Source: an uncultured delta proteobacterium (GTDB lineage Bacteria; Desulfobacterota; Binatia; Binatales; Binataceae). Taken from it: a stretch of DNA of 64,000 nucleotides. Position 1 is the first letter of the stretch. Each line of letters begins with the position of its first letter. Below are positions 3,001 through 52,126 of the stretch, piece by piece. The position numbers and the translations under genes were made by a program. The notes below the pieces were generated by a model. That model did not search any database and was not told the DNA's origin. It was given only the letters and a program-made list of their open reading frames with translations. The stretch is taken from the NCBI GenBank assembly GCA_963833025.1, contig CAWHWI010000003.1, forward strand, positions 618,338 to 682,337. Direction: 5' to 3'.

Positions 3001-4488
3001 TTACGTCGGTCCGGTAAAAAAACTCAGCGACCGATTCGCAAACGAAATGATTGGCGACCAGTACAGCCCGAACACGATCGTCGCGCAGGCCAGCACTCCC
3101 ATCAGCCCGTAATTCCACGCCTCGAAGCGTACAGTCCCCTCGTCGCCTCGCGGCTGCTCGAAGAACATCATCCGGATCGGCTTCAAGTAGTAATACAAAG
3201 ACACTACTGAATTGAGTATTCCAACAATAGCCAGTATGTAGAACTGACCTTTAATCACAGCAGCAAACAAATAGAATTTCCCGATAAACCCGACCGTCAA
3301 TGGGATACCCGTTAGTGAAAAGAGAAATATAGTCAGTGCGAGCGCCGGAACGATTCCGCCGCGCCACGCCAGCCCGCGATACGCCTCCACATCCTCGCGC
3401 CCGGTCGAGTTCGCCACGATCATCACCACCAGAAACGCGCCCGCATCCATTACATAGTAGGCAAACAGGTAGAAGAGCATCGCGCGAATGCCGTCGTTCG
3501 ACAGCACGACGAATCCCATCAGCGCGTATCCCGCCTGCGCGATACTCGAATACGCCAGCAGCCGCTTCATGTTGGTCTGCTGCAGCGCCGCAAGGTTGCC
3601 GAGCGTCATCGTGATGATGCAAACGAACAGCAGCAGTTGCGGCCAATCGACGCCCGCAAGAGCCGTCCAGCTTCCGCCCGCCGCCAGATGGGAAATCGCG
3701 GGAAAGAAAAATCGCGTCAGCAGCGCAAAGCCCGCCGCCTTCGATCCGATCGCCAGGAACGTCGTGATTGGAATCGGCGCGCCCGTGTAAACGTCCGGCG
3801 CCCACATATGAAACGGCACCGACGACACCTTGTAACCCATCCCGGTCAGGATCAGCACCAACGCGATAAACACGGCGAGCACCGGCAGATGCGCCGGCGT
3901 CGACAGCGCCTTGTTGATCACGCTGAAGTCGAGCGAGCCGGTGATTCCGAAAATCCAGCTCATCCCATAAATCATCGTGCCCGAAGCCACGCCGCCGTAA
4001 ATCAGGTACTTCAGCGCCGCTTCGAGCGAGCGCCGGTTATGCCGCAAAAAACCCGTCAGTATGTACGACGTCAGGCTGACGAACTCAAGCGCGAGATACG
4101 CCATCAGCAGGTTCGCCGACTCCGCCATCAAAAACATCGCAAACGTGCTCGCGAGCAAAATCGCGTAGTACTCGCCCTGGTCGCAGCCTCTCACTTCTTC
4201 CGAGCCAATCGACATCCAGATAGCCACGACCGCAGCCAGTGCGATCAGCGCGCGGAAATAAATCGCGAACGAATCGAACACCAGCATCCGATGGAACAGC
4301 CACGCGCCCGACGACGCCGGCTCCAGGCCAATCGCCACCAACGACGCCGCAGCCGCTATCAGTGCCAGCGCGCCGAGACGCAACTTGTCGCTCACCGCAA
4401 GATCGATGATCACGATGCCCAAAATCCCGGCCACCAGGATCATCTCCGGGACGAAATGTTTCAGGCTCGCGAAGTTTCCGAGATCCAT
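3001..4488 (-). CDS. nuoN: NADH-quinone oxidoreductase subunit N
   Basis: 495-aa polytopic membrane protein MDLGNFASLKHFVPEMILVAGILG...; last gene of the nuo operon. Confidence 0.93.
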   Translation of the reverse strand: MDLGNFASLKHFVPEMILVAGILGIVIIDLAVSDKLRLGALALIAAAASLVAIGLEPASSGAWLFHRMLVFDSFAIYFRALIALAAVVAIWMSIGSEEVRGCDQGEYYAILLASTFAMFLMAESANLLMAYLALEFVSLTSYILTGFLRHNRRSLEAALKYLIYGGVASGTMIYGMSWIFGITGSLDFSVINKALSTPAHLPVLAVFIALVLILTGMGYKVSSVPFHMWAPDVYTGAPIPITTFLAIGSKAAGFALLTRFFFPAISHLAAGGSWTALAGVDWPQLLLFVCIITMTLGNLAALQQTNMKRLLAYSSIAQAGYALMGFVVLSNDGIRAMLFYLFAYYVMDAGAFLVVMIVANSTGREDVEAYRGLAWRGGIVPALALTIFLFSLTGIPLTVGFIGKFYLFAAVIKGQFYILAIVGILNSVVSLYYYLKPIRMMFFEQPRGDEGTVRFEAWNYGLMGVLACATIVFGLYWSPIISFANRSLSFFTGPT

Positions 4489-4508
4489 CTAGTTAGTCCG
4501 AGCCAGAC

Positions 4509-6008
4509 TCAATGAAGCATCGCGACGGCCGCGCCCGAAGTCGACAGCACAACCTGGTTGAGATGCACCAGCGAAGTGTTGAGGAGGCCCAAAATCGCAT
4601 GCGGATAAACGCCGAGTATCAGCACGATCACGCCAAGTGGCACCAGCGTGAACGCCTCGCGAAACGACAAATCCGGAAGGTCCTTGTACTTCTCGTTCAA
4701 CGGCCCAAGATAGATTCGCTGGAACGTCCACAGCAGGTAGCCGGCCGTCAGTATCGCCGTCGCCGCGCCAAACACGACCATCAGCGGATGCGTCTGCCAC
4801 GCTCCGAGCAGCACCAGCACTTCCGAAATAAACGCGGACATCCCCGGCAGTCCCATGCCCGCGAAAAACGCGAAGCCCGTAATCGCCGTATAGATCGGCA
4901 TCTGCTGCGCCAGACCGCCGAAGCCGTTTATCTCGCGATGGTGTGCGCGATCGTAAATCACGCCGACCAGGATAAAGAGCATCGCGGTAATCGTTCCGTG
5001 ATTGAACATCTGCAGCACCGCGCCGTTGATCCCCGCCGCAGTGAACGCCGCCAGCCCGAGCATCACGTAACCCATGTGGCTAATCGACGAATAGGCAATC
5101 AACTTCTTATAGTCAGTCTGCGCCATCGCGCACATCGCGCCGTATACTATGTTGATAGTGCCGATCACCCCAAGGAACAGCCAAGCGAGCTGATAGCTCG
5201 CCGCTGGCAGCACCGCGAAATTGACGCGGAGAATTCCGTAGGTGCCCATTTTCAGTAGTACACCCGCAAGAATCACTGAGATCGCCGTCGGCGCTTCAAC
5301 GTGCGCGTCAGGCAGCCAGGTATGGAACGGGAACGCCGGAATTTTGATCGCGAAGCCGATGAATAGCGCGATCCAAGCTATTCGTTGGAATCCAATTGAG
5401 TAGTGACTCGAATTCGCCGCCAGCTCGGTCAAATCAAACGTCGGAGTCGCGCCATAGTAATACAGTCCGAGCATCGCCAGCAGAATGAGTACTGAGCCGA
5501 GTAGTGTGTACAGAAAGAACTTGATCGCCGCGTACTCGCGTCGCGGACCGCCCCAGATGCCGATGAGAAAATACATCGGCAGCAGCATCACTTCCCAGAA
5601 AATGTAGAACAGGAAGAAATCCAGCGACACGAACACGCCCATCATTCCGGTGTCGAGCATCAACAGCATCGCGTAATAGCCTTTCTCCGCGCGATTGATG
5701 CCGAAGCTCGCGAACACCGAGATGAACATGATGAGCGCGGTCAGCAGGATCATAGAGATGCTGATACCGTCCACGCCGATGAAGTAACTAATGTGGTATG
5801 CGGGCATCCACGACGCTTTCTCGGCGAACTGCACCGCGCTGGTCGTCGTGTCGAAGTTTTCGTAAAGGTAAATTGCGATTAGCAGCTGCGGTATCGTCGC
5901 CGCCACCGCGATCCACTTCGACGCGTTCTTCATCGAGTCGGGCAGCGCGAGAATCAGCACCATCCCGGCGATCGGAACAAAGGTTATCAGCGTAAGCGCG
6001 TGACTCAT
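4509..6008 (-). CDS. nuoM: NADH-quinone oxidoreductase subunit M
   Basis: 499-aa antiporter-like subunit; position and similarity to NuoM. Confidence 0.93.
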   Translation of the reverse strand: MSHALTLITFVPIAGMVLILALPDSMKNASKWIAVAATIPQLLIAIYLYENFDTTTSAVQFAEKASWMPAYHISYFIGVDGISISMILLTALIMFISVFASFGINRAEKGYYAMLLMLDTGMMGVFVSLDFFLFYIFWEVMLLPMYFLIGIWGGPRREYAAIKFFLYTLLGSVLILLAMLGLYYYGATPTFDLTELAANSSHYSIGFQRIAWIALFIGFAIKIPAFPFHTWLPDAHVEAPTAISVILAGVLLKMGTYGILRVNFAVLPAASYQLAWLFLGVIGTINIVYGAMCAMAQTDYKKLIAYSSISHMGYVMLGLAAFTAAGINGAVLQMFNHGTITAMLFILVGVIYDRAHHREINGFGGLAQQMPIYTAITGFAFFAGMGLPGMSAFISEVLVLLGAWQTHPLMVVFGAATAILTAGYLLWTFQRIYLGPLNEKYKDLPDLSFREAFTLVPLGVIVLILGVYPHAILGLLNTSLVHLNQVVLSTSGAAVAMLH

Positions 6009-6060
6009 TTCAGTTTCGCTCTTCCCGTTTTGCCTTGAATTGGCGCGGCCGCCGAATCCG

Positions 6061-8136
6061 TCATGCCCGCGCGACCGCGCGCACCAGCAGTATCAGCATC
6101 ACCGCGGCCAGGATTCCGTAGAGATATCCGTTAATCGAACCGGTCTGCAGCCGCCGGAGCCTGCCGCCAACGTCGAGCGTCAGGTTCGACGCGAAGTTCA
6201 CCAGCCCATCGACTATGTAATGGTCGAATAGTCCAGACAGCCAGGACAGAAATACTATTACCCGCGCCGCGAGATTAACTACTCCGTCAATTATATTCGT
6301 GTCGAACCAGGCCAACGCCCGCGTCGCGAATAGGTATGGCTGAATAACTACTCGATCGTAAAATTCATCGACATAGTATTTGTTGTATACCCATTCGTAA
6401 GGCACTCCGCCGAACATCTGGCTAAAGCGCGCGGGATCGAGCTTCTCTTGCCGATACATCAAATCAGCAAGGTACCATCCAGCGGCCACCACTATGAAAG
6501 TGACACCAGCGAACGTCCCCTCGACCAGATGATTGTGCATTCCCGACTCGGTAACGCGACGCGTGACGTCTGATCTGAGAATGGGCTCAAGGAATTCCTC
6601 GAACGGTTTGAACGCGATGATAAATTCCGGCCACTTCAACCATCCACCGACGACCGAAAGCGTGCCCAGCACAATCAGCACGTAAGCCATGGAGGGCGGC
6701 GATTCGTGCAGATGGTGCTCCTGCTCATGCGTGCCGCGAAATTCGCCGAAGAAAGTCATGTACACCTGACGCGACATGTAGAAGACGGTGAATCCGGCAC
6801 CTAGCAGCAGGAACGCCCACACGACGAAATGCCCATGCGAGAACGCCTGCCATATGATCTCATCTTTGGAGAAGAAGCCGGCAAACGGGAAAATGCCACA
6901 GAGCGCGAAGGTCGCTGCGACGAAGGTCCAGAACGTGATCGGCATCTTATGGCGCAGGCCGCCCATCTTGCGCATGTCCTGCTCGCCGCCCATCGCGTGA
7001 ATCACCGACCCCGATCCCAGGAACAGGCAGGCTTTGAAGAACGCATGCGTCATCAGGTGGAACACGCCGGCCGCGTATGCTCCGACGCCCATCGCCGCGA
7101 ACATGTATCCGAGCTGGCTCACCGTCGAGTACGCGAGCACCTTCTTGATGTCGTTTTGCGCGATGCCAATCGTCGCCGCGAACAGCGCGGTCATACCGCC
7201 CACCAGCGCAATCACGCCCATCGTGAAGGGCGACATCGAAAATAAAAAATTCAGCCGCGCCACCATGTACACGCCTGCCGTCACCATCGTCGCCGCATGG
7301 ATCAGCGCGCTGACCGGAGTCGGCCCGGCCATCGCGTCCGGCAGCCACACGTACAGCGGTATCTGCGCCGACTTTCCGGTCGCGCCGATGAACATCAACA
7401 GCGTGACGAATCCCACCAGCGTGTGCGCCGAATGGTAGCCTGCAAAATTTATCGGCACTCCCGACAGCAACGGCGCGTACTTCGCGACCTCGCGCGTCAC
7501 CAGCGTCGGATGCCCGAGCGCATCGAGTCCCGCGAACAAACTGTACAACGCGATCACGAACGCCAAGTCACCGACGCGGTTCACGATGAACGCCTTGTTG
7601 CCCGCCGTCGTGTTCGCCGTCACCTTGTACCAGAACCCAATCAGCGCGAACGAGCACAGCCCCACGCCTTCCCAACCCACAAACATCAGCCACAGGTTGT
7701 CGCCCAGCACCAGCACCAGCATCGCGAACGTGAACAGGTTGAGCCATCCGAAGAATCGCCAGTAGCCGTCGTCGTCGTGCATGTAGCCGGTCGAGTAGAT
7801 GTGAATCAGGCCGCCGACGCCGGTGATTATCAGCGTCATGATCATAGACAACGGATCGAGCCAGAACGCGATGTCGAGGTTCAGTCCGCCGACGTCGAAC
7901 CACTTCCACAAGTCGTCGAGCATGAAGCGGTTGTCCGGCGGCAACGTGAGCATCGCGAAAAACGCGCGCGCCGCCAGGATGAACGCCAGGATCACGACGC
8001 CGCATCCCACCAGGCTGATCGCGCGCTTGCCGAAGGTCTTCTGCAGCCACGCGCCGGCCAGGAAATTGACCGCCGCGCCCAAAAGCGGCAGCACCACGAT
8101 CAGTCGTATGAACGTAACCGGTATCGGGTGATCCAT
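6061..8136 (-). CDS. nuoL: NADH-quinone oxidoreductase subunit L
   Basis: 691-aa antiporter-like subunit with long C-terminal extension; position in operon. Confidence 0.93.
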   Translation of the reverse strand: MDHPIPVTFIRLIVVLPLLGAAVNFLAGAWLQKTFGKRAISLVGCGVVILAFILAARAFFAMLTLPPDNRFMLDDLWKWFDVGGLNLDIAFWLDPLSMIMTLIITGVGGLIHIYSTGYMHDDDGYWRFFGWLNLFTFAMLVLVLGDNLWLMFVGWEGVGLCSFALIGFWYKVTANTTAGNKAFIVNRVGDLAFVIALYSLFAGLDALGHPTLVTREVAKYAPLLSGVPINFAGYHSAHTLVGFVTLLMFIGATGKSAQIPLYVWLPDAMAGPTPVSALIHAATMVTAGVYMVARLNFLFSMSPFTMGVIALVGGMTALFAATIGIAQNDIKKVLAYSTVSQLGYMFAAMGVGAYAAGVFHLMTHAFFKACLFLGSGSVIHAMGGEQDMRKMGGLRHKMPITFWTFVAATFALCGIFPFAGFFSKDEIIWQAFSHGHFVVWAFLLLGAGFTVFYMSRQVYMTFFGEFRGTHEQEHHLHESPPSMAYVLIVLGTLSVVGGWLKWPEFIIAFKPFEEFLEPILRSDVTRRVTESGMHNHLVEGTFAGVTFIVVAAGWYLADLMYRQEKLDPARFSQMFGGVPYEWVYNKYYVDEFYDRVVIQPYLFATRALAWFDTNIIDGVVNLAARVIVFLSWLSGLFDHYIVDGLVNFASNLTLDVGGRLRRLQTGSINGYLYGILAAVMLILLVRAVARA

Positions 8137-8151
8137 TTTTTCGTTGCTCAG

Positions 8152-8466
8152 CTATCCACGCAGCGACTCGGCCGCGTCGACGTCGATCGTCTTGAAGTTC
8201 TGATAAATCGCCAGCACCACGGCCAACCCGATCACCGCCTCCGCGGCCGCCAGCATGATTACGAAAATCGCGAATATCTGTCCGTCGTATTTGCCGCCGC
8301 CGTAAAACGCAAACGCAAGGTAGTTGATATTGGCGGAATTGAGTATCAACTCGACGCCCATCAGGATTCCAATCGCGTTGCGCCGCGTCAGAACCGTGAA
8401 CAGCCCGAGCGAAAATACGATCAGGCTCAGCACCAGGAAGTGGTCAAGCGTTATTCCTCCGCCCAT
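8152..8466 (-). CDS. nuoK: NADH-quinone oxidoreductase subunit K
   Basis: Internal ATG at 8466 gives the ~104-aa product MGGGITLDHFLVLSLIVFSLGLFTVLTRRNAIGILMGVELILNSANINYLAF.... GGGGGA lies upstream. The longer ORF to 8643 is an upstream extension. Confidence 0.88.
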   Translation of the reverse strand: MGGGITLDHFLVLSLIVFSLGLFTVLTRRNAIGILMGVELILNSANINYLAFAFYGGGKYDGQIFAIFVIMLAAAEAVIGLAVVLAIYQNFKTIDVDAAESLRG

Positions 8467-8483
8467 CCCGATTCCCCCGCTCC

Positions 8484-8999
8484 CTACTCCCTCGCCTCGT
8501 GGCGCGAAATGACTATCGCGCCGATTAGCGCCGCCAGCAGCACCAGCGACGCAACCTCGAACGGCAACACGTAGTCGCCCAGGAACGCATTTCCGATCGC
8601 GTAGGTCGTCGGCGCAGGCGTGACTGCCGCCGCCTGATGCCACTGCGTTCGCCCTATCGCGTACAGCATCACCAGTCCGGCGATACCCACTGTGAAGAGC
8701 GCCGATCCCGTCCCGACCGCGCGATTCGATACCGTCACGTCCGCGATTCCCGCCGTCAGCATCACCGCGAAGATAGTCAGTACCAATATTCCACCGACGT
8801 AGACGAGTAGCTGTACCATCGCGACAAAGTCCGCCGCGAGCAGAATGTATATACCCACTACGCCCATAAACGCGCCGAGCAGCGCGAAGGTCGAATAAAC
8901 TATGTTGCGCGAGAACGCTACTAACATCGCCGACCCCACCGTCAACGCGGCCAGCGCATAGAATATTACCTGAGCGAGCATCTCTTCCCCGCGTTGCAA
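8484..8999 (-). CDS. nuoJ: NADH-quinone oxidoreductase subunit J (start may be Met at 8981)
   Basis: MLAQVIFYALAALTVGSAMLV... membrane subunit, operon position. Confidence 0.88.
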   Translation of the reverse strand: MQRGEEMLAQVIFYALAALTVGSAMLVAFSRNIVYSTFALLGAFMGVVGIYILLAADFVAMVQLLVYVGGILVLTIFAVMLTAGIADVTVSNRAVGTGSALFTVGIAGLVMLYAIGRTQWHQAAAVTPAPTTYAIGNAFLGDYVLPFEVASLVLLAALIGAIVISRHEARE

Positions 9000-9012
9000 G
9001 CAGCCGCGCGCG

Positions 9013-9582
9013 CTAAGCCGGCTCTTCTTCGGCCGGCTTTTCGCCGCCCGGCTGCGCCCATTGATCGAGGTAGGTCATGCCGCGATTCAGAATCGGCGCG
9101 ATTCTCGTGTCGGTCTCCGGCCCCTTCTTGGGCTTGTACGCCATCACCGGATCCGTGACGAAGCGGCGAATCAGGCTCTCCAGCGAATAGTCGGCGCCCT
9201 CGAACTCCGTCGTATGATGTATCGATCCGGTCGGGCACGGCTCGCTGCAGAGCCCGCAGTACATGCACTTTGCGATGTCGATGTCGAATTGCGACAGCAG
9301 CATCTGCCGCGTCTGCGGATCCTTGTCCACCACGATCACGATGCAATCGATCGGGCAGGCGCGCTCGCATGCCAGGCATCCCGTGCAGATTTCCAGATCG
9401 ACTTCCAGGATTCCGCGGTAACGGAACGGCAGCGTGTCCTGCACCCGCACCGGCATCCGGTCCGGATATTGCACCGTGTACGGCTTGCGCATGAAATGCG
9501 ACGCCGTGACCGCCATACCCTCGAATATACTCGAGACTGCGTCTTTTATATTAGTTACGTATTCGGAAACTGCGCTCATCAA
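9013..9582 (-). CDS. nuoI: NADH-quinone oxidoreductase subunit I (2x[4Fe-4S] ferredoxin)
   Basis: Two CxxCxxCxxxCP motifs: CTGCLACERACP and CMYCGLCSEPCP. Confidence 0.93.
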   Translation of the reverse strand: MMSAVSEYVTNIKDAVSSIFEGMAVTASHFMRKPYTVQYPDRMPVRVQDTLPFRYRGILEVDLEICTGCLACERACPIDCIVIVVDKDPQTRQMLLSQFDIDIAKCMYCGLCSEPCPTGSIHHTTEFEGADYSLESLIRRFVTDPVMAYKPKKGPETDTRIAPILNRGMTYLDQWAQPGGEKPAEEEPA

Positions 9583-9588
9583 TAGCCT

Positions 9589-10779
9589 CTATATAGTCGG
9601 ATTGAAGTATACTTCCATCCGCGAACGCCGGAGATAGTATATAACCCGCTGAGTAAACACCGCTGCCAGCGCAATCGCGGCCGCCAACATGATATACCCC
9701 ATCGCCGCGTTGCCGTCGGGCCAAATAGCTACCCACACCGCGGTTCCGATCATATCCACAAACGAAATCGGCACGAAGTATTTCCAGCAAAGCGTCATTA
9801 GCTGATCGATACGCACTCGCGGCAGCGTCGCGCGTATCCACATCGAAACGAACACCAGGATTAGTACTTTGACGTTGAATGTGATCGCCTGAAGTATATT
9901 CATCGCGACTACATTGTTCGTGATGTGCGGGAACTGCCATCCGCCGAGGAACAGCGTCGCGATTATCGCGCCGATGATGAACAGGTTGCCCCATTCCGCC
10001 ATGAAGAAGAACAGGTAGCGCATCCCGCTGTACTCAGTCGCGAAACCCGCTACCAGTTCCGACTCCGCTTCCGGCAAATCGAACGGCGTCCGGTTGCCCT
10101 CGGCCAACGCCGATATATAAAGGATGTTAGCCGCGACGAACGTGAACGGATTCGCGAACAAAAACCAATGCTGCGGCGCCCAGCCCTGCGCGCGAATGAT
10201 TCCCTGCATCGAGAGCGTGCCCGTCATCAGCACCACCGGGAATATCGAAAGCCCCGCCGGTATCTCGTAGCTGACTATCTGCGCCGCCGACCGGATTCCA
10301 CCGATCAGCGACCACTTGTCGTTCGACGCCCATCCCGCCATCAGCACGCCGACCACGGTGAGCGCAGTCACCGACGTCATATAGAGGATGCCCACGTTCA
10401 GGTCCGCCAGTATCAGCGACGACGAGAACGGCATCACCGCCCACGGCAGCGTGAACGCCAGCATCACCAGGTACGGCGCCATCTTGAACAGGGGAGCGTC
10501 GGATTCGTCGGGAATGATGTCTTCCTTGCAGACGTGTTTTACGCCGTCCGCCAGCCACTGGAGGAAACCCTGCGGGCCGACGCGATTCGGACCGACCCGC
10601 GACTGAATTCGCGCCCACACCCGCCGCTCCGCCCAGCTCACGATTCCCGCGAACGGAAACGCGACGCCCAGGAAGACCACCGCGCTCATCACGAACACGA
10701 CGATCGCGGCAACCAGGTGCGGCGACGCGTTCTTGCCGAACGCGCCCGACGCGATCAGATTGTGTACCAGTGTCTCCAT
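9589..10779 (-). CDS. nuoH: NADH-quinone oxidoreductase subunit H
   Basis: [24 protein letters not shown] motif and polytopic membrane protein. Confidence 0.93.
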
Positions 10780-10785
10780 CGAGGA

Positions 10786-11905
10786 TTAGCGATCGATCTC
10801 CGGCGCAATCACGTCCAGGCTCGCGATTAGCGTGACCAGGTCCGCGATCATCAAGCCCGCGCTCAGCTTCTGGATGATTCCCATCGCCGCAAACGATCCC
10901 GTACGTACGTGCACGCGCCACGGATACCCGGTGCCGTCGCTCACGAGGTACCATCCCATGTCGCCGCGTCCGCTCTCGAGCCTGAATCTGACATTCGCCG
11001 GCCGGCGGCTTGAAATTGCGCGCGACTTTCGCGAGCACCGGCCCCCCGGGAATCTTGTGCAGCGCCTGGCGCAGGATCTTCGACGACTCCGCCATCTCGC
11101 GAATCCGCACCACGTAGCGATCCATCGAGTCGCCGAGCTTGCCCCAATGCCCGTCGCCAATCGGCACGTCGAACTCGAACTCGGGATACACCGAATACGG
11201 GATGTCCTTGCGGATGTCCCACTTGATTCCGCACGCACGCAAATTCGGCCCGACCAGGTTGTAGTTGACGGCTTCCTCCGGCGTGATCACTCCGACGTTC
11301 GCCAGCCGCTCGATATAAATTTTGTTCCACGAGATCAGCGCGTTGTATTCCTCGAGAATTGGATCGAAATGATCGAGGTACGCGAGCGCCTTCTCGCGCC
11401 ATCCGGGCGGCAAGTCCCACGCCACGCCGCCGATTCGCATGTAGTTGAACGTGAGCCGCGCGCCGCACAGCTCCTCGATCAAATCGTTGATCATCTCGCG
11501 CTCGCGAATCGCATGCGTGAACGGCGTCACCGCGCCGATATCCATCGCCATCGCGCCCACCGAGAGCAGATGCGACGCGATTCGATTGAACTCCGCCGCG
11601 ATCACGCGACAGTACTCGCCGCGATGCGGCACTTCGATTCCCGCGAGCTTCTCGCACGCCATGCCCCAACCCTGGTTGGTGAACATCGCGCACACGTAAT
11701 CGACGCGATCGGTGTACGGCATGAAGCCGTGGTAGCCGACCTTTTCCGCAATTTTCTCGATCGACCGATGCAGGTAGCCGACGTCGGGGATCGCCTCGCG
11801 CATCACCTCGCCGTCGGCCCGCACCACGAAGCGCAGCACCCCGTGCGTCGACGGATGCTGCGGGCCCATGTTGAGCGTCATTTCTTCGGTGTGCAGCGTG
11901 CTCAT
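10786..11905 (-). CDS. nuoD: NADH-quinone oxidoreductase subunit D; reading frame is interrupted by an apparent single-base insertion near 10990-10996
   Basis: N-terminal ~300 aa ([20 protein letters not shown]...NFKPPAGE) are in one frame. The conserved C-terminus ([20 protein letters not shown]...[13 protein letters not shown], stop at 10786) is in another frame. The junction is gaa-t-gtc. Confidence 0.85.
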
Positions 11906-12411
11906 TTCTTTTTCGTGTCGAGCCGAATTATCGGGCTCTCTCTGACGGTTGAGATTCCGTGGTATTCGGCCGGCTCGACAAAATCCTTGCGTTGCGGATG
12001 ACCGATCCAGTCCTCCGGCATCAGGATTCGCCGCATGTCGCTGTGCCCTTCGAAATTCACGCCGATCAGATCAAAGATTTCGCGCTCCATCCAGTTCGCC
12101 GACTTCCACACGCCCTCGAGCGTCGCAACGCTCGGATTTTCGCGGGGCAGCTTTACCTTCAACACCGCAGTGTGCCGCTTCGAGTAAGAGAACAGGTGAT
12201 AGACCACCTCGATGCGGTCCTTGTAATCGACGCCGGTCTCGTTGGAGAGGCAGTCCATCGCGAGCTGGGGATCCTCGTTCATGAAGCGCCCGACCTCGAC
12301 CACCGACTTCGGATCGATCACCGCAAACGGATCCGGCTTCTTCTCCGAAATTTCCAGCACGCGATCGCCGAACTGGTTTTTCACCCGTTCGAGTATTTGA
12401 AGCGACTCCAT
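11902..12411 (-). CDS. nuoC: NADH-quinone oxidoreductase subunit C (alternative start at 12441 would overlap nuoB)
   Basis: [21 protein letters not shown]...[15 protein letters not shown], 30-kDa subunit family. Confidence 0.88.
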
Positions 12412-12415
12412 CTGC

Positions 12416-12928
12416 TCAGGCTGCGGCCACCTGCTTGCCATTGCCGTTGGGCGAGCGCACCAGCCAGCGCTCGGTCATCATCTTTTCCTGCAGCTTGAGC
12501 AGGCCCTCGGTCAGCGCCTCGGGGCGCGGCGGGCAACCGGGAACGTACACATCGACCGGCAGGATCTTGTCGACGCCGTCGCAGACCGAGTAGGCGAACT
12601 GGAACAGTCCGCCGCAGCTCGCGCACGAGCCCATCGAGATGACGTACTTCGGGTCGGGCATCTGATCGTAAAGCAGCCGTGTCCTGAGCGCCATTTTGAG
12701 CGTCAGCGTGCCCGCCACGATCATCAGGTCCGACTGGCGCGCCGACGCGCGCGGCGTCGCACCGAAACGATCGATGTCAGCGCGCGGGCCGCCCGTATGC
12801 ATCAGCTCGATCGCGCAGCAAGCCAGGCCGAACAGCATGTACCAGATGCTCGATTTGCGCATCCAATTCAGCAGCTCGTCCGTCTTGGTGGTCAAAACGT
12901 AATCGGGAAGCGTGTTCAACAAGGGCAT
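12416..12928 (-). CDS. nuoB: NADH-quinone oxidoreductase subunit B
   Basis: GLACCAIE...MGSCASCGG...VPGCPPRPE cluster N2 motifs. Confidence 0.94.
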
Positions 12929-12939
12929 AAAGACAAACC

Positions 12940-13332
12940 TCAGTCTTCGACCGGTACCTTCTTAATCCATTCCAGGTCGTGCTTGACCCAAACGTAAACC
13001 AGGCCGACGAACAGGATCAGCAGAAAAATTAAAATCTCGCTGAGCGCGTACAGGCGGCGTCCCGAGCGCACCCAGTCCAGGTAAACGGCGGCAATCGGAT
13101 AAACGAATGCGACCTCGACTTCGAACACCACGAAAATCAGCGCAATCAGGTAAAAGCGGACGTTGAAATTGATCCATGCGCGCCCGGTCGGCGGCTCGCC
13201 GCATTCGTAGGGAATCAGCTTCCGATCGTATGGATTTTGCGGCGCCAGCAGCTTCTGCAAGCCGAACATCAGCGCCACGAAGCCGATCCCGATGATCGTC
13301 AGAGCCAGCGGCACGCCAAAATTAAGATACAT
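12940..13332 (-). CDS. nuoA: NADH-quinone oxidoreductase subunit A
   Basis: 130-aa three-helix membrane protein, first gene of nuo cluster. Confidence 0.92.
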
Positions 13333-28958: not shown

Positions 28959-29339
28959 ATGGTTCAGCAGCACACATCGTCCGAGCACCTCAACGCGACT
29001 TTCTCGGCGCTCGCCGATCCCACTCGCCGCGCGATCCTCGCTCGCCTCGCGTCGGGCGAGACTTCCGTGTCCGAGCTGGCCGAGCCCTTCGAGATGAGCA
29101 TGCCCGCCATCTCCAAGCACCTGAAGGTGCTGCAGCGCGCGGGCCTGATCGAACGCGGCCGCGAGGCGCAATGGCGTCCGTGCCGGCTCGCCGCCGGTCC
29201 GCTCAAGGACGCCTCGGACTGGCTCGATCGCTATCGCCGTTTCTGGGAGGAGAGCTTCGATCGCCTCGAGGATTATCTGCGCGAGCTGCAGAAGCGCGAA
29301 TCACAAAAGAAGGAGACCAAAAATGGCCGCAAAAAGTAG
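28959..29339 (+). CDS. ArsR/SmtB family transcriptional regulator
   Basis: FSALADPTRRAILARLASGETSVSELAE...SMPAISKHLKVLQRAGLI wHTH. Confidence 0.85.
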   Translation: MVQQHTSSEHLNATFSALADPTRRAILARLASGETSVSELAEPFEMSMPAISKHLKVLQRAGLIERGREAQWRPCRLAAGPLKDASDWLDRYRRFWEESFDRLEDYLRELQKRESQKKETKNGRKK

Positions 29340-29844
29340 CGCCGCCGCTCAATCCGACTCGCGCGAGCTGGTCGTCACCCGCGTCCTCGACGCGCCGCGC
29401 GCCCTGGTGTGGAAAGCACTCACCGAGCCCGAGCGCCTCGAGCACTGGTGGGGGCCGAAGGGCTTCACTTCAAAGGTCCACAAGCTCGAGCTGCGCCCCG
29501 GCGGCATCTTCCTCTACAGCCAACGCACGCCTGACGGCCGCGAGATGTGGGGCAAATGGGTCTATCGCGAAATCGTCGCGCCCGAGCGGCTGGTGAGCGT
29601 CTCTTCCTTCACCGATGAGAAGGGTAATTCGATCCCGCATCCTTTGATCCCGAACTGGCCGCTGGAGATTCTGGGCGTGTCCACGTTCACCGAGCGTCAG
29701 GGCAAGACCACGATGGTCGTGCGGATGGTCCCGGTAAACGCGACCGAGTCGGAGCGCAAGACTTTCGAAGAACACCTCAATTGGATGGAAGAGGGTTTTG
29801 CCGGAACTCTCGAAAAGCTCGACAAATACCTGGCGTCACTCTGA
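29323..29844 (+). CDS. SRPBCC/AHSA1 (Aha1-like) domain protein, paralog 1
   Basis: RVLDAPRALVWKALTEPERLEHWWGPKGF signature. Confidence 0.8.
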   Translation: MAAKSSAAAQSDSRELVVTRVLDAPRALVWKALTEPERLEHWWGPKGFTSKVHKLELRPGGIFLYSQRTPDGREMWGKWVYREIVAPERLVSVSSFTDEKGNSIPHPLIPNWPLEILGVSTFTERQGKTTMVVRMVPVNATESERKTFEEHLNWMEEGFAGTLEKLDKYLASL

Positions 29845-29878
29845 GGCATCATCACCAACAGGCTGAAGGAGAGCAGCT

Positions 29879-29989
29879 ATGCAACTCAATCCCTATCTGA
29901 ACTTCGATGGCAACTGCGCCGCCGCGTTCAAGTTCGTCGATCAATTCGGCACGCCCTGGATGATCAACTGCGAGGGCGAAGCGCGATGA
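29879..29989 (+). pseudogene. 36-codon remnant of a PhnB/VOC-like gene (N-terminus only), translationally coupled (ATGA) to next gene
   Basis: MQLNPYLNFDGNCAAAFKFVDQFG matches the conserved N-terminus of PhnB-like VOC proteins, then stops. GAAGGAG SD upstream. Confidence 0.5.
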
Positions 29990-30480
29990 CTTCCGCAAGG
30001 CCGACGATATCCGATTCCGCGCCGGAAGATACCTCGGATCGCGAGATCGTCGTCACCCGAGTTTTCGACGCGCCGCGAGCGCTCGTGTTCAAGTTGTGGA
30101 CTGATCCGCAACATGTCGCGCGATGGTGGGGGCCGAATGGCTTTAGCACCACGACTTATGAGATGGACGTGCGGCCGGGCGGCGTGTGGCGCTTCGTCAT
30201 GCACGGACCCGACGGCCGGGATTATCAGAACAAGGTCGCATATGTCGAAATCGCCGAGCCCGAGCGACTGGTTTACAAGCATGTCTCCGGTCCGCAATTT
30301 CAAATGACGGTGACCTTTGCCGACGCCGGCGACAAGACGAGGCTCACGGCGCGGATGCTCTTCGAGTCAGCCACCCTGCGCAACAAGGTCATCGAAGAAT
30401 TCGGGGCCGTCGAGGGACTCAAGCAGACTCTCGGACGCCTCGACGATTATGTGAACCATACTAAGGAGAGCATCCGATGA
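29986..30480 (+). CDS. SRPBCC/AHSA1 domain protein, paralog 2
   Basis: RVFDAPRALVFKLWTDPQHVARWWGPNGF. Confidence 0.8.
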   Translation: MTSARPTISDSAPEDTSDREIVVTRVFDAPRALVFKLWTDPQHVARWWGPNGFSTTTYEMDVRPGGVWRFVMHGPDGRDYQNKVAYVEIAEPERLVYKHVSGPQFQMTVTFADAGDKTRLTARMLFESATLRNKVIEEFGAVEGLKQTLGRLDDYVNHTKESIR

Positions 30481-30929
30481 CTTCAAACACCGAAGTTACA
30501 GTTGGCGATCGCGAGCTCACCATCACGCGCATCTTCGACGCGCCCCGCCCGCTGGTTTTCTTCGCGTGGTCAAGACCCAAACATCTGATGCGTTGGTTCG
30601 CGCCCAACAACTTCACCGTGTCGGAGTGCGAGATGGACTTCCGCGAGGGCGGAAAGTTCCGGCTGTGCATGCGCGGCTTCGGCAAGGACCATTGGATGAA
30701 CGGCGTCTTTCGCGAAATCGTCAAGCCGGAGCGAATCGTCTGGAGCAGCTTGTTGGATAACGACACCAACGAAGTGGTCACGACGGCGACGTTCACCGTT
30801 ATGGGCGGCGGCAAGACCATGCTCACAGTGCATCAGACCTACTCGATCGAAACTGATTCGACCCGCGGTGCACCACAGGGATGGTCCGAAACCCTCGATC
30901 ATCTCGCCGAATTACTGGCGGACGCCTGA
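30477..30929 (+). CDS. SRPBCC/AHSA1 domain protein, paralog 3
   Basis: RIFDAPRPLVFFAWSRPKHLMRWFAP; ATGA overlap with paralog 2. Confidence 0.8.
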   Translation: MTSNTEVTVGDRELTITRIFDAPRPLVFFAWSRPKHLMRWFAPNNFTVSECEMDFREGGKFRLCMRGFGKDHWMNGVFREIVKPERIVWSSLLDNDTNEVVTTATFTVMGGGKTMLTVHQTYSIETDSTRGAPQGWSETLDHLAELLADA

Positions 30930-30954
30930 CGGAATCGACTGAAGGAGAATTATT

Positions 30955-31425
30955 ATGGGAGCAGCAGTTAACCTGGTAAGCGAGCCTGCGGATCGCGTGC
31001 TTAAAATCGAGCGCGTCTTCGACGCGCCGCGCAGTCTCGTCTTCAAAGCCTGGACCGAGCCCGAGCACATCGCGAAATGGTGGGGTCCGCGCGGCTTCAC
31101 CAGCACCGTTCTCAAAAACGATCTGCGCCCGGGCGGCGCCTATCGAATCCACATGCGCGGACCCGACGGCGATCACTGGACGCAGGGCATCTATCGCGAA
31201 GTGGTCCCTCCCGAGCGGCTGGTCATGGTCGGGAGCTGGGCCGATGCGCAGGGCAATCCAACGCGCCCCGAAACGACGCTGACGCTGCTGTTCGAGGATC
31301 TCGGCGGCAAGACCAAGCTCACTCTGCACAACGCGGTCTTCGAATCGGTCACGGCGCGCGATTTGCACCAGGGCGGATGGACCAGCGCGCTCGATTGTCT
31401 CGCCGAATACCTGGCAACTGCCTGA
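30955..31425 (+). CDS. SRPBCC/AHSA1 domain protein, paralog 4
   Basis: RVFDAPRSLVFKAWTEPEHIAKWWGPRGF. Confidence 0.8.
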   Translation: MGAAVNLVSEPADRVLKIERVFDAPRSLVFKAWTEPEHIAKWWGPRGFTSTVLKNDLRPGGAYRIHMRGPDGDHWTQGIYREVVPPERLVMVGSWADAQGNPTRPETTLTLLFEDLGGKTKLTLHNAVFESVTARDLHQGGWTSALDCLAEYLATA

Positions 31426-38766: not shown

Positions 38767-39939
38767 CTATTGGCTGCGTCCCTCGACCAGTTTGCGCAGG
38801 CGCTCAGCGCCTTCCTTCGCGACCTGCTCCTGCTCCGGGTTGCTCCCAGAGCCATCGAGGTCGAGCAAGTCATAATACAGCCTGCCTTGCAGCTTCGCGA
38901 CTTCGTTGACGAAGGTCGTGCCGTAATCGCGCTCCGGATCGCCCATCGCAAACGCCTGCCGCGTGATCGTCCAGCTCTCGGGGCGCAGTTGCCGCGCGCG
39001 CTTGAAGTATGGCACCGCGTCCGGCGCGTGACCGGTCTCGCACAGATACTCCGCCAGCCTGAAGTACGCGGCGGCTTGCGCATGCTCGCGGGTCGGCAGT
39101 TTGAGCTTGCGTTTCACCTCGCCGGGCTTCATCACGAAGCGGCTGTTCGCGCCGAGCTTCGCCCAATCTCGAAGCGCGTCGAGATATCGCGCCGAATCGA
39201 GACCGGTGATCGCGCGGAAGGTGTCGAGCGCGTACGCGACTTCGTTGGGCCGCACGATCGCTCCCGATTCATCGATCCACACGGCGGTCGGCACGTTGAC
39301 CATGTTGTAGAGTTCGGCGACGACGTGCCGGGTGTCGATCAACGAAGGATGCGCCGGCTTGCCGGCCTTGATGAACGGGCCTGCCGCGGCGGCGCCGCCG
39401 GTGTCGAGCGCGACCGTGACAATCGTGAAGTTGAGATCCTTGAGTTCTTCGTACAGCGCCTGCCACCCGGGCAGGTCAAGGGAGCATCCTCACCAGGACG
39501 CCCATGCCAGTAAAAGGACTTTCTTGCCGCGGTAGTCCGACAGGCGATGCAGTTTGCCTTCAAGGTCGGGCAATTGAAAATCAGGAGCTTCGAGCGAGCC
39601 CAGCGCGTTGTCGCGCTCGGCGGCGTCGGCGCCGAAGTACCATACGCGATTCTTTTGGTCGCCGGCCCACGGCTTGCCCATCTGGTCGGCGAGCGCGGTG
39701 AAGTTGAGCCACGCCGCGCCGTCATGCTTCGAGGAGAATTGGTTCTCGCGTCCCGGCGGAATCGGCACGCACAAATCGCCGCGGCAGATTCCCTCCGGCT
39801 TGAGCTCCCATTCCGCGAGCTTTTTCAGTTCCGCCGCGTCGAGCCACAACGCATTCGAGTCCGCGATCGCGCGCTCGAAATGCAGCGGCTTGTCGTCGTG
39901 AATGATCGTGGCGGCGCCCGGCGTTGATTCAGTTGTCAT
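38767..39939 (-). CDS. thioredoxin-fold (redoxin/TlpA-like) protein with in-frame TGA at 39490-39492 in the active-site position; candidate selenoprotein, or split pseudogene
   Basis: Upstream part ends ...DYRGKKVLLLAWASW-TGA. The same frame continues GCSLDLPGWQALYEEL...VPTAVWIDESG (Trx-fold cis-Pro region) to the stop at 38767. GGGAGGA SD before ATG 39939. Confidence 0.6.
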
Positions 39940-44089: not shown

Positions 44090-44184
44090 CCGTGGTCACT
44101 GAAAAGGAACACCGGCACAATTTTGCTAGCATCGCACGGTTCGCTCAAGCGCTGACTCCGAAAAATCAAAATGAGACGACGCGA

Positions 44185-44988
44185 TTGATTCTTCTCTTTT
44201 ACGCCTTCGCACGCGAGATCGCGCCTTTCAAGCGCCGACTGCGAAATCGCACTCCGCTCGCTCTGGACGGCTTACATGGCTTTCGCGCAGAGATCGGCGG
44301 CAAACAGTTTGCCATTGTCGGGCACGGAATCGGTCATCGGCGCGCGACCGAAACCGCGCGCCGCGCGTTCGATTTGATGCCCGGGGCGGAGTTGGTGATC
44401 GGCACGGGCGTCGTCGGCGCGCTCTCGAGTGGACTGAAGCCGGGCGACCTCGTTCTCTCCGACCGCGTTCTGACAATTGACGCTGACGGGCGAGTTGAGG
44501 AACAAATGACCGCCGTCGGCGACGCGCATCTGCGCGCAACCGGCCGCGCGCTTGCGTCCGCAGGTATCGCATACTCGACCGGCGCGATTTTGACATCGCA
44601 TCGCGTGCTCGCGACGGGCGCCGAGAAACGCCGCGCCAAGGAAAGCACCGGCGCGATCGCCGTGGACATGGAAACCGCCGCGATAGCCGCGGAAGCCGCC
44701 GTGCGCGGACTCCCGTTCGTCGCGATTCGCGCGGTGCTCGACGAAGTTGACGACGAAGTGGTCGGCGCCGCGATGGCCGACCAGGACGGCAACGTGCGGC
44801 CGCTCGCCGCGACGTCCTACCTCCTGCGCAATCCGGGCACTATGCTCAAGCTGCCGCGGATGATTCGAAACCTCTCGCGCGCGACTGCCGCAATCGCCGA
44901 CGCACTCACGGCGATCGCGCACGACGGCAAGGTTCCCGCGGCGGCTAAGCGTGCTCTCGCGCCGGCGGAGCGAAAGCGCCCGCGCTGA
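44185..44988 (+). CDS. hpnG: hopanoid-associated phosphorylase (PNP/MTA-nucleosidase family); start uncertain (44092 or TTG 44185)
   Basis: Nucleoside phosphorylase-like fold motifs GIGHRRA...AVDMETAAIA. Confidence 0.7.
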   Translation: MILLFYAFAREIAPFKRRLRNRTPLALDGLHGFRAEIGGKQFAIVGHGIGHRRATETARRAFDLMPGAELVIGTGVVGALSSGLKPGDLVLSDRVLTIDADGRVEEQMTAVGDAHLRATGRALASAGIAYSTGAILTSHRVLATGAEKRRAKESTGAIAVDMETAAIAAEAAVRGLPFVAIRAVLDEVDDEVVGAAMADQDGNVRPLAATSYLLRNPGTMLKLPRMIRNLSRATAAIADALTAIAHDGKVPAAAKRALAPAERKRPR

Positions 44989-45739
44989 AACCGCCGTCAA
45001 TCGGCACCGCGACGCCCGTGATGAAGCCCGCCTCGTCCGACGCGAGGAACGCCGCCAGCGCGCCGACCTCTTCCGGCTTGCCGTTGCGCCCCAGTGGATG
45101 CATGTTGCCGGTGCGCTCCCAAACTAACTGCGACGCGCCGGCGGGAACGGTGTTGCAATTCTCGGCGATCGGCGTTTCGATCACGCCTGGGCAAATCGAC
45201 ACGCATCGAATCTTGTGACGCGCGAAGTCGAGCGCGATTCCCTTCGACATGATCACGACGCCGCCCTTCGCCGCCTGGTAGGCGCCGAGATTCGGCACGC
45301 CTTCGATGCCCGCGCCGCTGGCGGTGTTGATAATCACGCCGCCGCCCTGCTTGATCATTTGTGGGATCGCATACTTGCAGCCGAAAAATACGCCTTTCAG
45401 GCACACGTCCACGACCCAGTCCCATTCTTCCTCGCTCGTGTCCACGACAGTTTTGGGCACGAAGACGCCGGCGTTGTTGAACAGGATGTCGAGACGGCCG
45501 AACGCGGCGATCGTTTCGTTGACCATGCGCTCGACTTCGGCGCCGATTCGCACGTCCACCGATATCGATTTCGCGACGCCGCCCGCCTTCTCGATCTCAG
45601 CCGCGGTGTTGCTCGCCGTTTCCGCGCGCACGTCGGCGACCATCACCTTCGCGCCTTCTTGCGCGAACCGAATCGCGCTGGCGCGCCCGATTCCCGAACC
45701 CGCGCCGGTTATCAACGCAACCTTGTCCTTGAGCAGCAT
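44945..45739 (-). CDS. SDR family oxidoreductase
   Basis: MLLKDKVALITGAGSGIGRA, NNAG, YxxxK. Confidence 0.83.
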   Translation of the reverse strand: MLLKDKVALITGAGSGIGRASAIRFAQEGAKVMVADVRAETASNTAAEIEKAGGVAKSISVDVRIGAEVERMVNETIAAFGRLDILFNNAGVFVPKTVVDTSEEEWDWVVDVCLKGVFFGCKYAIPQMIKQGGGVIINTASGAGIEGVPNLGAYQAAKGGVVIMSKGIALDFARHKIRCVSICPGVIETPIAENCNTVPAGASQLVWERTGNMHPLGRNGKPEEVGALAAFLASDEAGFITGVAVPIDGGFSAGAFAPPAREHA

Positions 45740-45817
45740 GCTGAGTCACCTCGCCCGCCTAACCTTGGCTCGACGATCGACGCTTGCCACAGTTGGCGAA
45801 AATTTGGAAGGGCGGCG

Positions 45818-46717
45818 CTACGCGGTGGCGCGATGCAACTCGTGCTTGCGACCGCTCGTTGGCTTCCAGACAGGAAGATCGCGCTCGTAGGGAAAATCCG
45901 CGAGATGGCGTTCGATGGCGGCGGCGTCGCCCCAGGATTCGCGGCGGGTGAGGATGTGAATCGCGAGCACGGTGAACGGCAGATAGATAAACACGGCAGC
46001 CCACCCGATATTCGGCGCGTTGACTCGGAACAGCATCGCGATTCCGAAGATCACGATCCCTGCGTAGAGCGCCGGCCCCAGCAGCGCGCGCGAGGGCATG
46101 ACGGGAACCGAGCCGGCCGGCTTGTTCGCGCCGCGATTGAGTGCAGCGTCGAGCCACTGGAAAATCGCAATTGTGATCGCGGCGACGAAATACCATCCAA
46201 GATAGTTGCTGATCGGCACGCCGAAGTGCGGCCCCGGCGGATCGTACCAGAAAATTTTGCCGAGGAACCATCTTTCGCCGAGCACGCTCAACGGATCGAC
46301 GACCATGTCCACCATCACCATGAACAGCGCCGCCATCAGCCATACGCGCGGCGCTCGGCGAATCTCCCACGTGTCGAGAATCCGAATATCAACACCGCGC
46401 TGATAAAGCGGCGAACTCAGCAACAGCGCGACGGTGTAGCTGGCGAACGCGAGGAACGTGAACGACAGCGAATCCATGAACGGCACGCCGAACACCCAAA
46501 TCTCGCGCGCGCGACTCGCGTCAATATAGTGATACAGCCCGAATGGGAATCCGTTGTGGACCGAAGACCACTCGCACGCGAGCGACACGGCGTAGGTCAG
46601 CACCGTAAACAGCAGCGTCGTGCGCAGGCCAAAGTTCACAATCGCGATCAAGAGAAAACTCGCCAGGAAGATGAACACGTACGGGCGCAGCGCGATCGTG
46701 GATAGCAGCAGATGCAT
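45818..46717 (-). CDS. polytopic membrane protein (carotenoid-biosynthesis-protein/DUF422-like), downstream of hpnA
   Basis: 299 aa with ~7 hydrophobic helices; family assignment tentative. Confidence 0.45.
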   Translation of the reverse strand: MHLLLSTIALRPYVFIFLASFLLIAIVNFGLRTTLLFTVLTYAVSLACEWSSVHNGFPFGLYHYIDASRAREIWVFGVPFMDSLSFTFLAFASYTVALLLSSPLYQRGVDIRILDTWEIRRAPRVWLMAALFMVMVDMVVDPLSVLGERWFLGKIFWYDPPGPHFGVPISNYLGWYFVAAITIAIFQWLDAALNRGANKPAGSVPVMPSRALLGPALYAGIVIFGIAMLFRVNAPNIGWAAVFIYLPFTVLAIHILTRRESWGDAAAIERHLADFPYERDLPVWKPTSGRKHELHRATA

Positions 46718-46725
46718 CGCGGGGC

Positions 46726-47730: not shown

Positions 47731-47746
47731 TCGACTCGACGAATAG

Positions 47747-50942: not shown

Positions 50943-50946
50943 CGTC

Positions 50947-52116: not shown

Positions 52117-52126
52117 CGCGACTCGC

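What the first reader, a model, noticed from the sequence alone, without database searches (positions are those of the whole stretch)
10786..11905. Apparent +1 frameshift in nuoD (essential complex I subunit)
The conserved NuoD C-terminus ([20 protein letters not shown]...[11 protein letters not shown], stop at 10786) is in a different frame from the N-terminal 300 residues, which end ...NFKPPAGE. Joining them requires removing one base at gaa-t-gtc, on the minus strand at about 10990-10996. Without correction the N-terminal frame runs on as a spurious 592-aa ORF overlapping nuoH. Candidates are a sequencing or assembly error, a real inactivating mutation, or programmed frameshifting; error is the most likely given that every other nuo gene is intact.
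Basis: seen in the sequence. Interest (0 to 1): 0.5.

Follow-up and report, generated by a model that had tools for sequence, protein, structure and literature searches.

The report
One-base insertion splitting nuoD, probably artefact
A respiratory-complex gene (nuoD) in this soil-bacterium assembly is broken by one extra base that none of 104 related sequences carries, and it is most likely an assembly consensus error, not biology.

Summary
The frameshift is in the sequence. nuoD (minus strand, 11905..10786) reads in frame for 307 codons (…PPAGECQI). It then needs one base skipped to reach the last 65 codons (RLESGRGD…PEIDR, stop at 10786). Uncorrected, it runs on as a 592-aa ORF over nuoH.

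The junction is not at gaa-t-gtc (10993). It lies in ATTCAGG (10987..10981), because relatives also read GECQI.

None of 104 related Binatus/Binataceae loci has the extra base. All encode an intact 372-aa protein.

After the shift, differences from relatives are 7-14 synonymous against 0-1 non-synonymous codons. All ten other nuo genes are intact, and no other frameshift showed up in the 64 kb.

Relatives carry two synonymous haplotypes at the site, ATT-CGG and ATC-AGG. The window's ATTCAGG is their column-wise merge.

The window's proteins map to a single unannotated 1.08-Mb contig. Its nearest relatives are Nanopore-only (Flye + Medaka) soil MAGs.

Best reading: a consensus or polishing artefact in a strain mixture (about 0.65). 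A very recent real loss-of-function allele is about 0.3. Programmed frameshifting is about 0.02: it is not conserved and has no slippery site, stimulator or nearby 0-frame stop. Interest is low.

The parts
10985..11905 (-). nuoD codons 1-307 (MSTLHTEE…PPAGECQI), the correct reading frame before the extra base
   Evidence: translation. (PF00346 positions 1-182). (orthologues read GECQI). (coding signal 11914..10994).
10981..10987 (-). ATTCAGG, a 7-nt stretch where every relative has 6 nt (ATTCGG, the major haplotype, or ATCAGG in L027 and L048). It holds the one extra base: T at 10985/10986, C at 10984 or A at 10983.
10786..10983 (-). nuoD codons 308-372 plus stop ([12 protein letters not shown]…IAPEIDR*), in the +1 frame relative to the N-terminal part
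   Evidence: (PF00346 positions 203-271). (7-14 synonymous against 0-1 non-synonymous codon differences from the closest relatives). (residues 293-372 of the corrected protein, which include this part, align to the C-terminal 80 residues of NdhH 6HUM_H).
10127..10984 (-). Spurious run-on of the N-terminal frame (285 Arg/Gly-rich codons plus stop) overlapping nuoH. Together with 10985..11905 it forms the 592-aa ORF.
   Evidence: (864-nt tail with no coding signal). (the 592-aa product is not in the 15-billion-protein collection, although nuoH from the same contig is).
9589..10779 (-). nuoH, intact, 396 aa. It starts 6 nt after the nuoD stop.
   Evidence: PF00146. (99.2-99.5% identity to L027 and L028 over the full length).
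11902..12411 (-). nuoC, intact, 169 aa. Its stop overlaps the nuoD start (ATGA).
   Evidence: PF00329. (169 aa in relatives)..
12416..13332 (-). nuoA (12940-13332) and nuoB (12416-12928), both intact
3001..9579 (-). nuoI (9013-9579), nuoJ (8484-8981), nuoK (8152-8466), nuoL (6061-8136), nuoM (4509-6008) and nuoN (3001-4488). All are intact. No nuoEFG lies between nuoD and nuoH.
   Evidence: same gene order and lengths in relatives..

Best explanation
The organism's nuoD is intact. The extra base is an artefact of consensus building in a metagenome assembly.

The window comes from an uncultured soil Binatus (Binataceae). It very probably belongs to a long-read, Nanopore-only MAG.

The population carries two synonymous haplotypes for the Ile-Arg codon pair at this spot, ATT-CGG and ATC-AGG. 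Written with gaps they are ATTC-GG and AT-CAGG. A consensus that keeps both the T column and the A column yields ATTCAGG, which is one base too long.

That string is one deletion away from each haplotype. Under an error model that favours indels it is therefore the 'median' of a balanced strain mixture.

**Shown**
- The base is unique to this sequence.
- The rest of the gene and of the operon is intact and under selection.
- Both haplotypes exist in relatives.
- The window equals their merge.

**Inferred**
- The source assembly is long-read only.
- Both haplotypes co-occurred in the sample.
- The polisher produced the hybrid.

A plain random indel error falls under the same explanation.
For: 1. 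**Uniqueness.** None of the 104 related loci carries the extra base. These are 80 Binatus/Binataceae contigs from the species-representative genome collection, 21 metagenome contigs and 3 contigs found by protein look-up. Every tblastn match spans at most 372 codons with no extra base. Every locus captured at the site by pattern or regex has a 6-nt Ile-Arg pair. The regex caught 61 loci.
2. **Selection after the shift.** Against the 8 closest relatives, the 65 codons after the shift differ at 7-14 synonymous and 0-1 non-synonymous codons. The three nucleotides unique to the window in the whole gene are all synonymous, and two of them lie after the shift.
3. **Intact operon.** The other ten nuo genes are intact, colinear with relatives and mostly 97-100% identical in protein (nuoL is 91.7% to L028).
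4. **Only one break.** The codon-usage scan finds no other high-scoring ORF with a non-coding tail in 64 kb. One frameshift per 64 kb is inside the range I would expect from memory for a Nanopore-only MAG.
5. **Haplotype merge.** 26 of 61 loci read CAG ATT CGG CTC GAG. L027 and L048 read CAG ATC AGG CTC (both give I-R-L). L027 is the closest genome over 20 kb, at 93.7% identity. The window reads CAG ATT C AGG CTC. About 30 of 1118 dinucleotide positions in the gene carry such 'shift-like' allele pairs. A random insertion reproducing one exactly has a chance of roughly 1-3% (my estimate).
6. **Provenance.** Eight of the nine window proteins found in the collection (exact matches) sit on one contig of 1,084,594 bp. 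That contig is held by NCBI and ENA without names or protein accessions. Most near relatives are 'MFD…bin' MAGs. [quoted passage not shown]
Against: - No reads are available, so the artefact is not demonstrated.
- The extra base is not in a long homopolymer, the commonest site of Nanopore indels. At most it is T→TT.
- The provenance of the contig is inferred, not shown. Three look-ups of the source contig failed.
- If the assembly were short-read (de Bruijn graph), a hybrid k-mer absent from all reads could not arise, and the base would be real.
- The ATC-AGG haplotype is rare (2 of 61 loci). Its presence in the source sample is not shown.
- The 1-3% coincidence estimate is post hoc.
- Low dN/dS after the shift equally fits a very recent real mutation.
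Confidence: 0.65

Rival explanations
1. The insertion is a real, very recent single-base mutation in this strain or in the dominant genotype of the sample. It could be a T→TT slip on an ATC-AGG allele or an A insertion on an ATT-CGG allele. It truncates the functional NuoD after residue 307 and sends ribosomes across the nuoH start. This inactivates the 11-subunit NDH-1-like complex. The loss would be tolerated because other quinone reductases exist.
For: - The base is in the deposited sequence.
- It is not at a long homopolymer.
- The rest of the window shows no other frameshift, so the assembly is not obviously noisy.
- The cluster lacks nuoEFG and its NuoD is closest to NdhH. It may therefore be an accessory complex and not the sole complex I.
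- Published Binatota genomes also encode complex II and respiratory uptake hydrogenases (PMC8262859).
Against: - There is no decay of any kind: 0-1 non-synonymous changes after the shift and ten intact, highly conserved neighbouring nuo genes.
- 0 of 104 relatives share the insertion or lack the gene.
- The exact coincidence with the merge of two known haplotypes is unexplained by a random mutation.
- The prior for a single indel error in a long-read-only MAG is, from general knowledge, higher than for a fixed fresh null allele in a conserved respiratory operon.
Confidence: 0.3
2. Programmed +1 ribosomal frameshifting, or another recoding event at AUU-C-AGG, produces full-length NuoD from the shifted gene.
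For: - The shift is +1.
- Skipping C after AUU gives exactly the orthologous protein (I-R-L-E).
- The downstream frame is perfectly conserved.
Against: - It is not conserved: all 104 relatives encode NuoD in one frame.
- The 0-frame A-site codon CAG is the preferred Gln codon (19.8 per 1000 against 4.6 for CAA), so it is neither a hungry codon nor a stop.
- By my own base-pairing reasoning, tRNA-Ile on AUU would re-pair poorly on UUC.
- No Shine-Dalgarno-like stimulator lies in the 30 nt upstream.
- The 0 frame stays open for 285 more codons, whereas known sites end at or near a stop.
- There is no homopolymer that could support transcriptional slippage.
Confidence: 0.02

Closest known systems
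NuoD / NdhH (49-kDa subunit, Pfam PF00346) of 11-subunit NDH-1-type complex I
   Same: - The corrected protein is 372 aa and 94-96% identical to intact Binataceae orthologues from the protein search. tblastn best-segment identity reaches 99% in the genome collection.
- It matches PF00346 at E = 2e-86.
- It aligns end to end with solved NdhH (6HUM_H, E = 3e-101) and with T. thermophilus Nqo4 (2FUG_4, E = 1e-92).
- The gene order is nuoA-B-C-D-H-I-J-K-L-M-N.
   Different: In the window the gene carries one extra base, so no single ORF encodes the protein.
Residual indel errors and strain-collapse consensus errors in Nanopore-only metagenome assemblies (Flye + Medaka, as in the Microflora Danica long-read MAGs, PMC12313526)
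   Same: - It is a single isolated 1-nt insertion, unique to one assembly, in an otherwise conserved gene.
- It lies at a polymorphic dinucleotide.
- The source contig is longer than 1 Mb and unannotated.
- The closest relatives are from that project.
   Different: - The error is not in a long homopolymer.
- The source assembly method is inferred, not verified.
- No reads could be inspected.
prfB-type programmed +1 frameshift (CUU UGA C with an upstream Shine-Dalgarno-like element)
   Same: The direction of the shift (+1) is the same, and the downstream frame is conserved.
   Different: There is no conservation across orthologues, no stop or rare codon in the A site, no Shine-Dalgarno-like stimulator and no nearby 0-frame stop.

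Membership tests
NuoD/NdhH (Complex1_49kDa) | Significant match to PF00346 over the whole domain | tested here: met
   the two pieces match profile positions 1-182 and 203-271; the corrected protein scores E = 2e-86 (289.8 bits).
NuoD/NdhH (Complex1_49kDa) | Colinear, same-length orthology with intact family members, and a position between nuoC and nuoH | tested here: met
   relatives are 372 aa, and the 1119-nt genes align with a single 1-nt gap; the nuoC-nuoD-nuoH order is conserved.
NuoD/NdhH (Complex1_49kDa) | A single uninterrupted ORF encoding the protein | tested here: not met
   the frame changes at 10981-10987.
Programmed +1 ribosomal frameshift site | The shift is conserved in orthologous genes | tested here: not met
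   0 of 104 related loci carry the extra base.
Programmed +1 ribosomal frameshift site | A slippery P-site codon followed by a stop or rare 0-frame codon | tested here: not met
   the A-site codon CAG is common (19.8 per 1000). The next 0-frame stop is 285 sense codons away.
Programmed +1 ribosomal frameshift site | An upstream Shine-Dalgarno-like stimulator | tested here: not met
   the upstream 30 nt are AATTTCAAGCCGCCGGCCGGCGAATGTCAG, with no AGGAGG- or GGGGG-like element at the right spacing.
Decaying pseudogene | Relaxed selection or several disabling lesions, or decay of partner genes | tested here: not met
   7-14 synonymous against 0-1 non-synonymous codon differences after the shift; the ten partner genes are intact.
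Assembly or consensus artefact | The lesion is unique to one assembly and absent from all relatives | tested here: met
Assembly or consensus artefact | The sequence at the lesion can be explained as a merge of co-existing alleles | tested here: met
   ATTC-GG plus AT-CAGG gives ATTCAGG.
Assembly or consensus artefact | The assembly was made from error-prone long reads without short-read polishing | tested here: inconclusive
   the source is a single 1,084,594-bp contig, held unannotated by NCBI and ENA; the near relatives are Nanopore-only MFD MAGs. The source record itself could not be retrieved.
Assembly or consensus artefact | Reads disagree with the consensus at the site | not testable with these tools
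   No read data are accessible.

The most novel reading that the evidence does not exclude
The extra base is real, and this Binatus strain still makes full-length NuoD by a non-canonical, lineage-specific +1 recoding at AUU-C-AGG. This would explain why the downstream frame and the whole operon show no decay. A milder version is that the window caught a real frameshifted intermediate of an insertion-then-deletion path between the two synonymous haplotypes ATT-CGG and ATC-AGG.
Probability: 0.02. Interest if true: 0.55.

Novelty: not a real feature. Interest (0 to 1): 0.07.

Why it matters
The value is mainly annotation hygiene.

- The 592-aa ORF is spurious.
- nuoD should be annotated as a 372-aa gene with a probable sequencing frameshift.
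- Metabolic reconstructions of this MAG should not score the NDH-1-type complex as incomplete.

It is also a concrete, checkable example of a consensus error. Two synonymous haplotypes that differ by an adjacent double substitution can be merged into a frameshift when strains are collapsed in a long-read metagenome assembly. This kind of error is not tied to homopolymers.

If the base proved real, it would be a fresh null allele of a conserved respiratory complex in a soil bacterium. That would be of modest interest.

Tried and rejected
- **Exact-protein look-ups of the source contig.** Queries with nuoH, nuoC and the M1 aminopeptidase returned nothing, although the same sequences are in the protein collection. 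The source record and its sample could not be read.
- **Simple GC3 frame plots and GC3-filtered ORF lists**. These were too noisy in this 62% G+C sequence. A codon-usage log-odds scan replaced them.
- **Six-frame tblastn of relatives' ORFs against the window**. It gave many shadow-frame hits. Among real genes only nuoD changes frame. The other 'multiple frame' flags were shadow ORFs or an indel near the 2029/2040 gene boundary.
- **A second nuo cluster.** None is in the window. The Binatota papers give no copy number.
Rejected because orthologues read GECQI.
- **Programmed frameshifting and transcriptional slippage.** Rejected on conservation and sequence features.
- **A split but functional NuoD made as two polypeptides.** Rejected. 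The +1 frame shows no coding signal upstream of 10980, and no relative is split.
- **Stability of a selenocysteine-insertion (SECIS) hairpin for the side finding.** The fold was no better than shuffled controls.

Full report
**1. The observation**

On the minus strand an ORF starts at the ATG at 11905, overlapping the nuoC stop. It stays open for 592 codons to 10127 and covers two thirds of nuoH.

Its first ~300 residues match Pfam Complex1_49kDa positions 1-182. The last part of the domain (positions 203-271, …[15 protein letters not shown]…IAPEIDR) lies in the +1 frame and ends at the stop at 10786-10788.

I trained a codon-usage log-odds scan on long ORFs of the window. It places the coding signal on 11914..10994 in the first frame and on 10980..10795 in the second. 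The 864-nt run-on has no coding signal.

**2. Where the extra base is**

The closest orthologues are 372 aa and 94-96% identical. They read …[12 protein letters not shown](I/L/V)[10 protein letters not shown]…. The residues 'CQI' after 'PPAGE' in the window's first frame are therefore genuine.

DNA alignment with three orthologues shows one gap column inside ATTCAGGCTCGAG. In window coordinates the 7-mer ATTCAGG is 10987..10981.

Deleting T, C or A from it gives ATC-AGG, ATT-AGG or ATT-CGG. All three encode Ile-Arg and restore the same 372-aa protein. Codons 1-307 lie at 11905..10985, and codons 308-372 plus the stop lie at 10983..10786.

The corrected protein matches PF00346 at E = 2e-86. It aligns through to the C-terminus with solved NdhH (6HUM_H, E = 3e-101) and Nqo4 (2FUG_4, E = 1e-92).

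**3. Context**

The gene sits in an 11-gene cluster, nuoA-B-C-D-H-I-J-K-L-M-N (13332..3001, minus strand). No nuoE, nuoF or nuoG is in the locus. Relatives have the same order and gene lengths.

All ten other genes are intact and mostly 97-100% identical in protein to those of the closest genomes (nuoL is 91.7% to L028). The window holds no second nuo cluster.

The organism is an uncultured soil member of Candidatus Binatus (Binataceae), judging from the titles of the matching genome records.

**4. Comparison with relatives**

A scan of the species-representative genome collection returned 80 Binatus/Binataceae loci. Their tblastn matches cover (nearly) all 372 residues, and no match is longer than 1116 nt, so none carries an extra base.

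A gapped DNA pattern allowing 3 or 4 bases at the site found 21 metagenome contigs. All of them have 3 bases.

Together with three contigs fetched by protein look-up, that makes 104 loci. None has the 7-nt allele. A looser regex tabulated the site in 61 of them.

The nearest genomes are 93-96% identical in DNA. No second assembly of the same species was available.

**5. Selection**

Against the eight closest relatives, the 65 codons after the shift differ at 7-14 synonymous and 0-1 non-synonymous codons. The ratio before the shift is similar, at 23-42 against 1-4.

Only three nucleotides in the gene are unique to the window. All three are synonymous, and two lie after the shift.

The out-of-frame part has therefore not drifted. 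The lesion is either extremely young or not real.

**6. The site is the merge of two haplotypes**

Among the relatives the commonest sequence is CAG ATT CGG CTC GAG (26 of 61 loci). L027 and L048 instead carry CAG ATC AGG CTC. L027 is the genome closest to the window over 20 kb, at 93.7% identity. Both versions encode Q-I-R-L.

Written with gaps the two are ATTC-GG and AT-CAGG. The window has ATTCAGG, with both optional columns filled. This string is one deletion from each haplotype.

By my reasoning, an error model that makes indels cheaper than substitutions would favour it as the consensus of a roughly balanced mixture of the two.

About 30 of 1118 dinucleotide positions in the gene carry allele pairs of this 'shift-like' form among 27 relatives. 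I estimate that a random insertion reproduces such a merge exactly about 1-3% of the time. The estimate is post hoc, so it is suggestive and not decisive.

**7. Provenance**

Nine of ten window proteins are found by exact sequence in the large protein collection. Eight of them, including NuoB, C, H, L, M and N and the M1 aminopeptidase, are seen on exactly one contig of 1,084,594 bp. That contig is held by NCBI and ENA without names or accessions. The 592-aa run-on product is not in the collection.

A megabase contig from a soil MAG points to long-read assembly. Most of the nearest relatives are 'MFD…bin' MAGs. [quoted passage not shown] The authors also note microdiversity within the MAGs (PMC12313526).

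That the window's contig belongs to this or a similar data set is an inference. Three attempts to fetch it failed.

**8. Programmed frameshifting is rejected**

- The shift is not conserved in any orthologue.
- The 0-frame codon after AUU is CAG, the preferred Gln codon (19.8 per 1000 against 4.6 for CAA).
- The 30 nt upstream hold no Shine-Dalgarno-like element.
- The 0 frame continues for 285 sense codons.
- No homopolymer is present that could support transcriptional slippage.

**9. Verdict**

- **Most likely (about 0.65):** nuoD is intact in the organism, and the extra base is a consensus or polishing artefact. Specifically it would be the merge of two co-occurring synonymous haplotypes, or a plain residual indel.
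- **Main rival (about 0.3):** a real, very recent 1-nt insertion that knocks out this NDH-1-type complex. Only reads can separate the two.
- **Recoding (about 0.02).**

The junction position and the word 'essential' need correction. Interest is low.

**10. Seen in passing**

*Probable selenoprotein.* A probable selenoprotein gene lies at about 39939..38767 on the minus strand.
- An in-frame TGA at 39490-39492 sits in the motif WASW-U-GC of a TlpA/redoxin-TPR protein.
- Joined with Cys in place of the TGA, the protein gives one continuous AhpC-TSA match at E = 1.3e-16.
- Full-length homologues have Cys at that position.
- Many clusters of ~218-225-aa proteins match only the part after the TGA. 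The four aligned that reach this region begin right after it, at (M/L)PGWQ. This looks like gene calls truncated at a conserved TGA.
- A 6-bp hairpin starts 17 nt downstream, but the fold of the region is no better than shuffled controls.

*Hopanoid-type cluster.* The window also holds a hopanoid-type biosynthesis cluster at about 44-57 kb.

*SRPBCC paralogues.* Four tandem AHSA1/SRPBCC paralogues lie behind an ArsR-type regulator.

Noticed in passing
window 38767-39939 (minus strand); TGA at 39490-39492: This looks like a selenocysteine-containing TlpA/redoxin-TPR protein. Two same-frame ORFs are separated by a single TGA, in the context LLLAWASW-TGA-GCSLDLPGWQ. With Cys in place of the TGA, the joined protein gives one continuous AhpC-TSA/Redoxin match (4-122 of 124, E = 1.3e-16). 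Full-length homologues have Cys there (WASWCGC). Many ~218-225-aa database proteins match only the part after the TGA, and the four I aligned across this region begin right after it, which suggests the TGA is conserved. A hairpin CCUGCC-CGGGU-GGCAGG starts 17 nt downstream, but its stability is not above shuffled controls.
   Followed up: partly
window ~44092-57204: A hopanoid/isoprenoid biosynthesis neighbourhood. It holds squalene-hopene cyclase (52127-54085), two squalene/phytoene-synthase paralogues (49112-50942) and an amine-oxidase-type flavoprotein (47747-49111). It also holds DXP reductoisomerase (50947-52116), a polyprenyl synthetase (55203-56180), a radical-SAM + DUF3463 protein (56200-57204) and a PNP_UDP_1 phosphorylase (44092-44988).
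   Followed up: no
window 28959-31425 (plus strand): An ArsR/HTH_20 regulator is followed by four tandem AHSA1/SRPBCC-domain paralogues: 29323-29844, 29986-30480, 30477-30929 and 30955-31425.
   Followed up: no
P0001 (ENA protein, 530 aa, on a 2049-nt contig), not in the window: The top-scoring NuoD homologue in the protein search contains an internal duplication of about 150 residues (the stretch LSVGTFGQDIGAITPF… to …GTLGDS occurs twice). It probably reflects an assembly artefact in another data set, so database NuoD entries of odd length need care.
   Followed up: no
window 3001-13332 (minus strand): The nuo cluster is the 11-gene type, with no nuoEFG between nuoD and nuoH. Its NuoD scores better against cyanobacterial and chloroplast NdhH (6HUM_H, E = 3e-101) than against T. 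thermophilus Nqo4 (E = 1e-92). The electron-input module of this complex in Binatus is not evident from the locus.
   Followed up: partly
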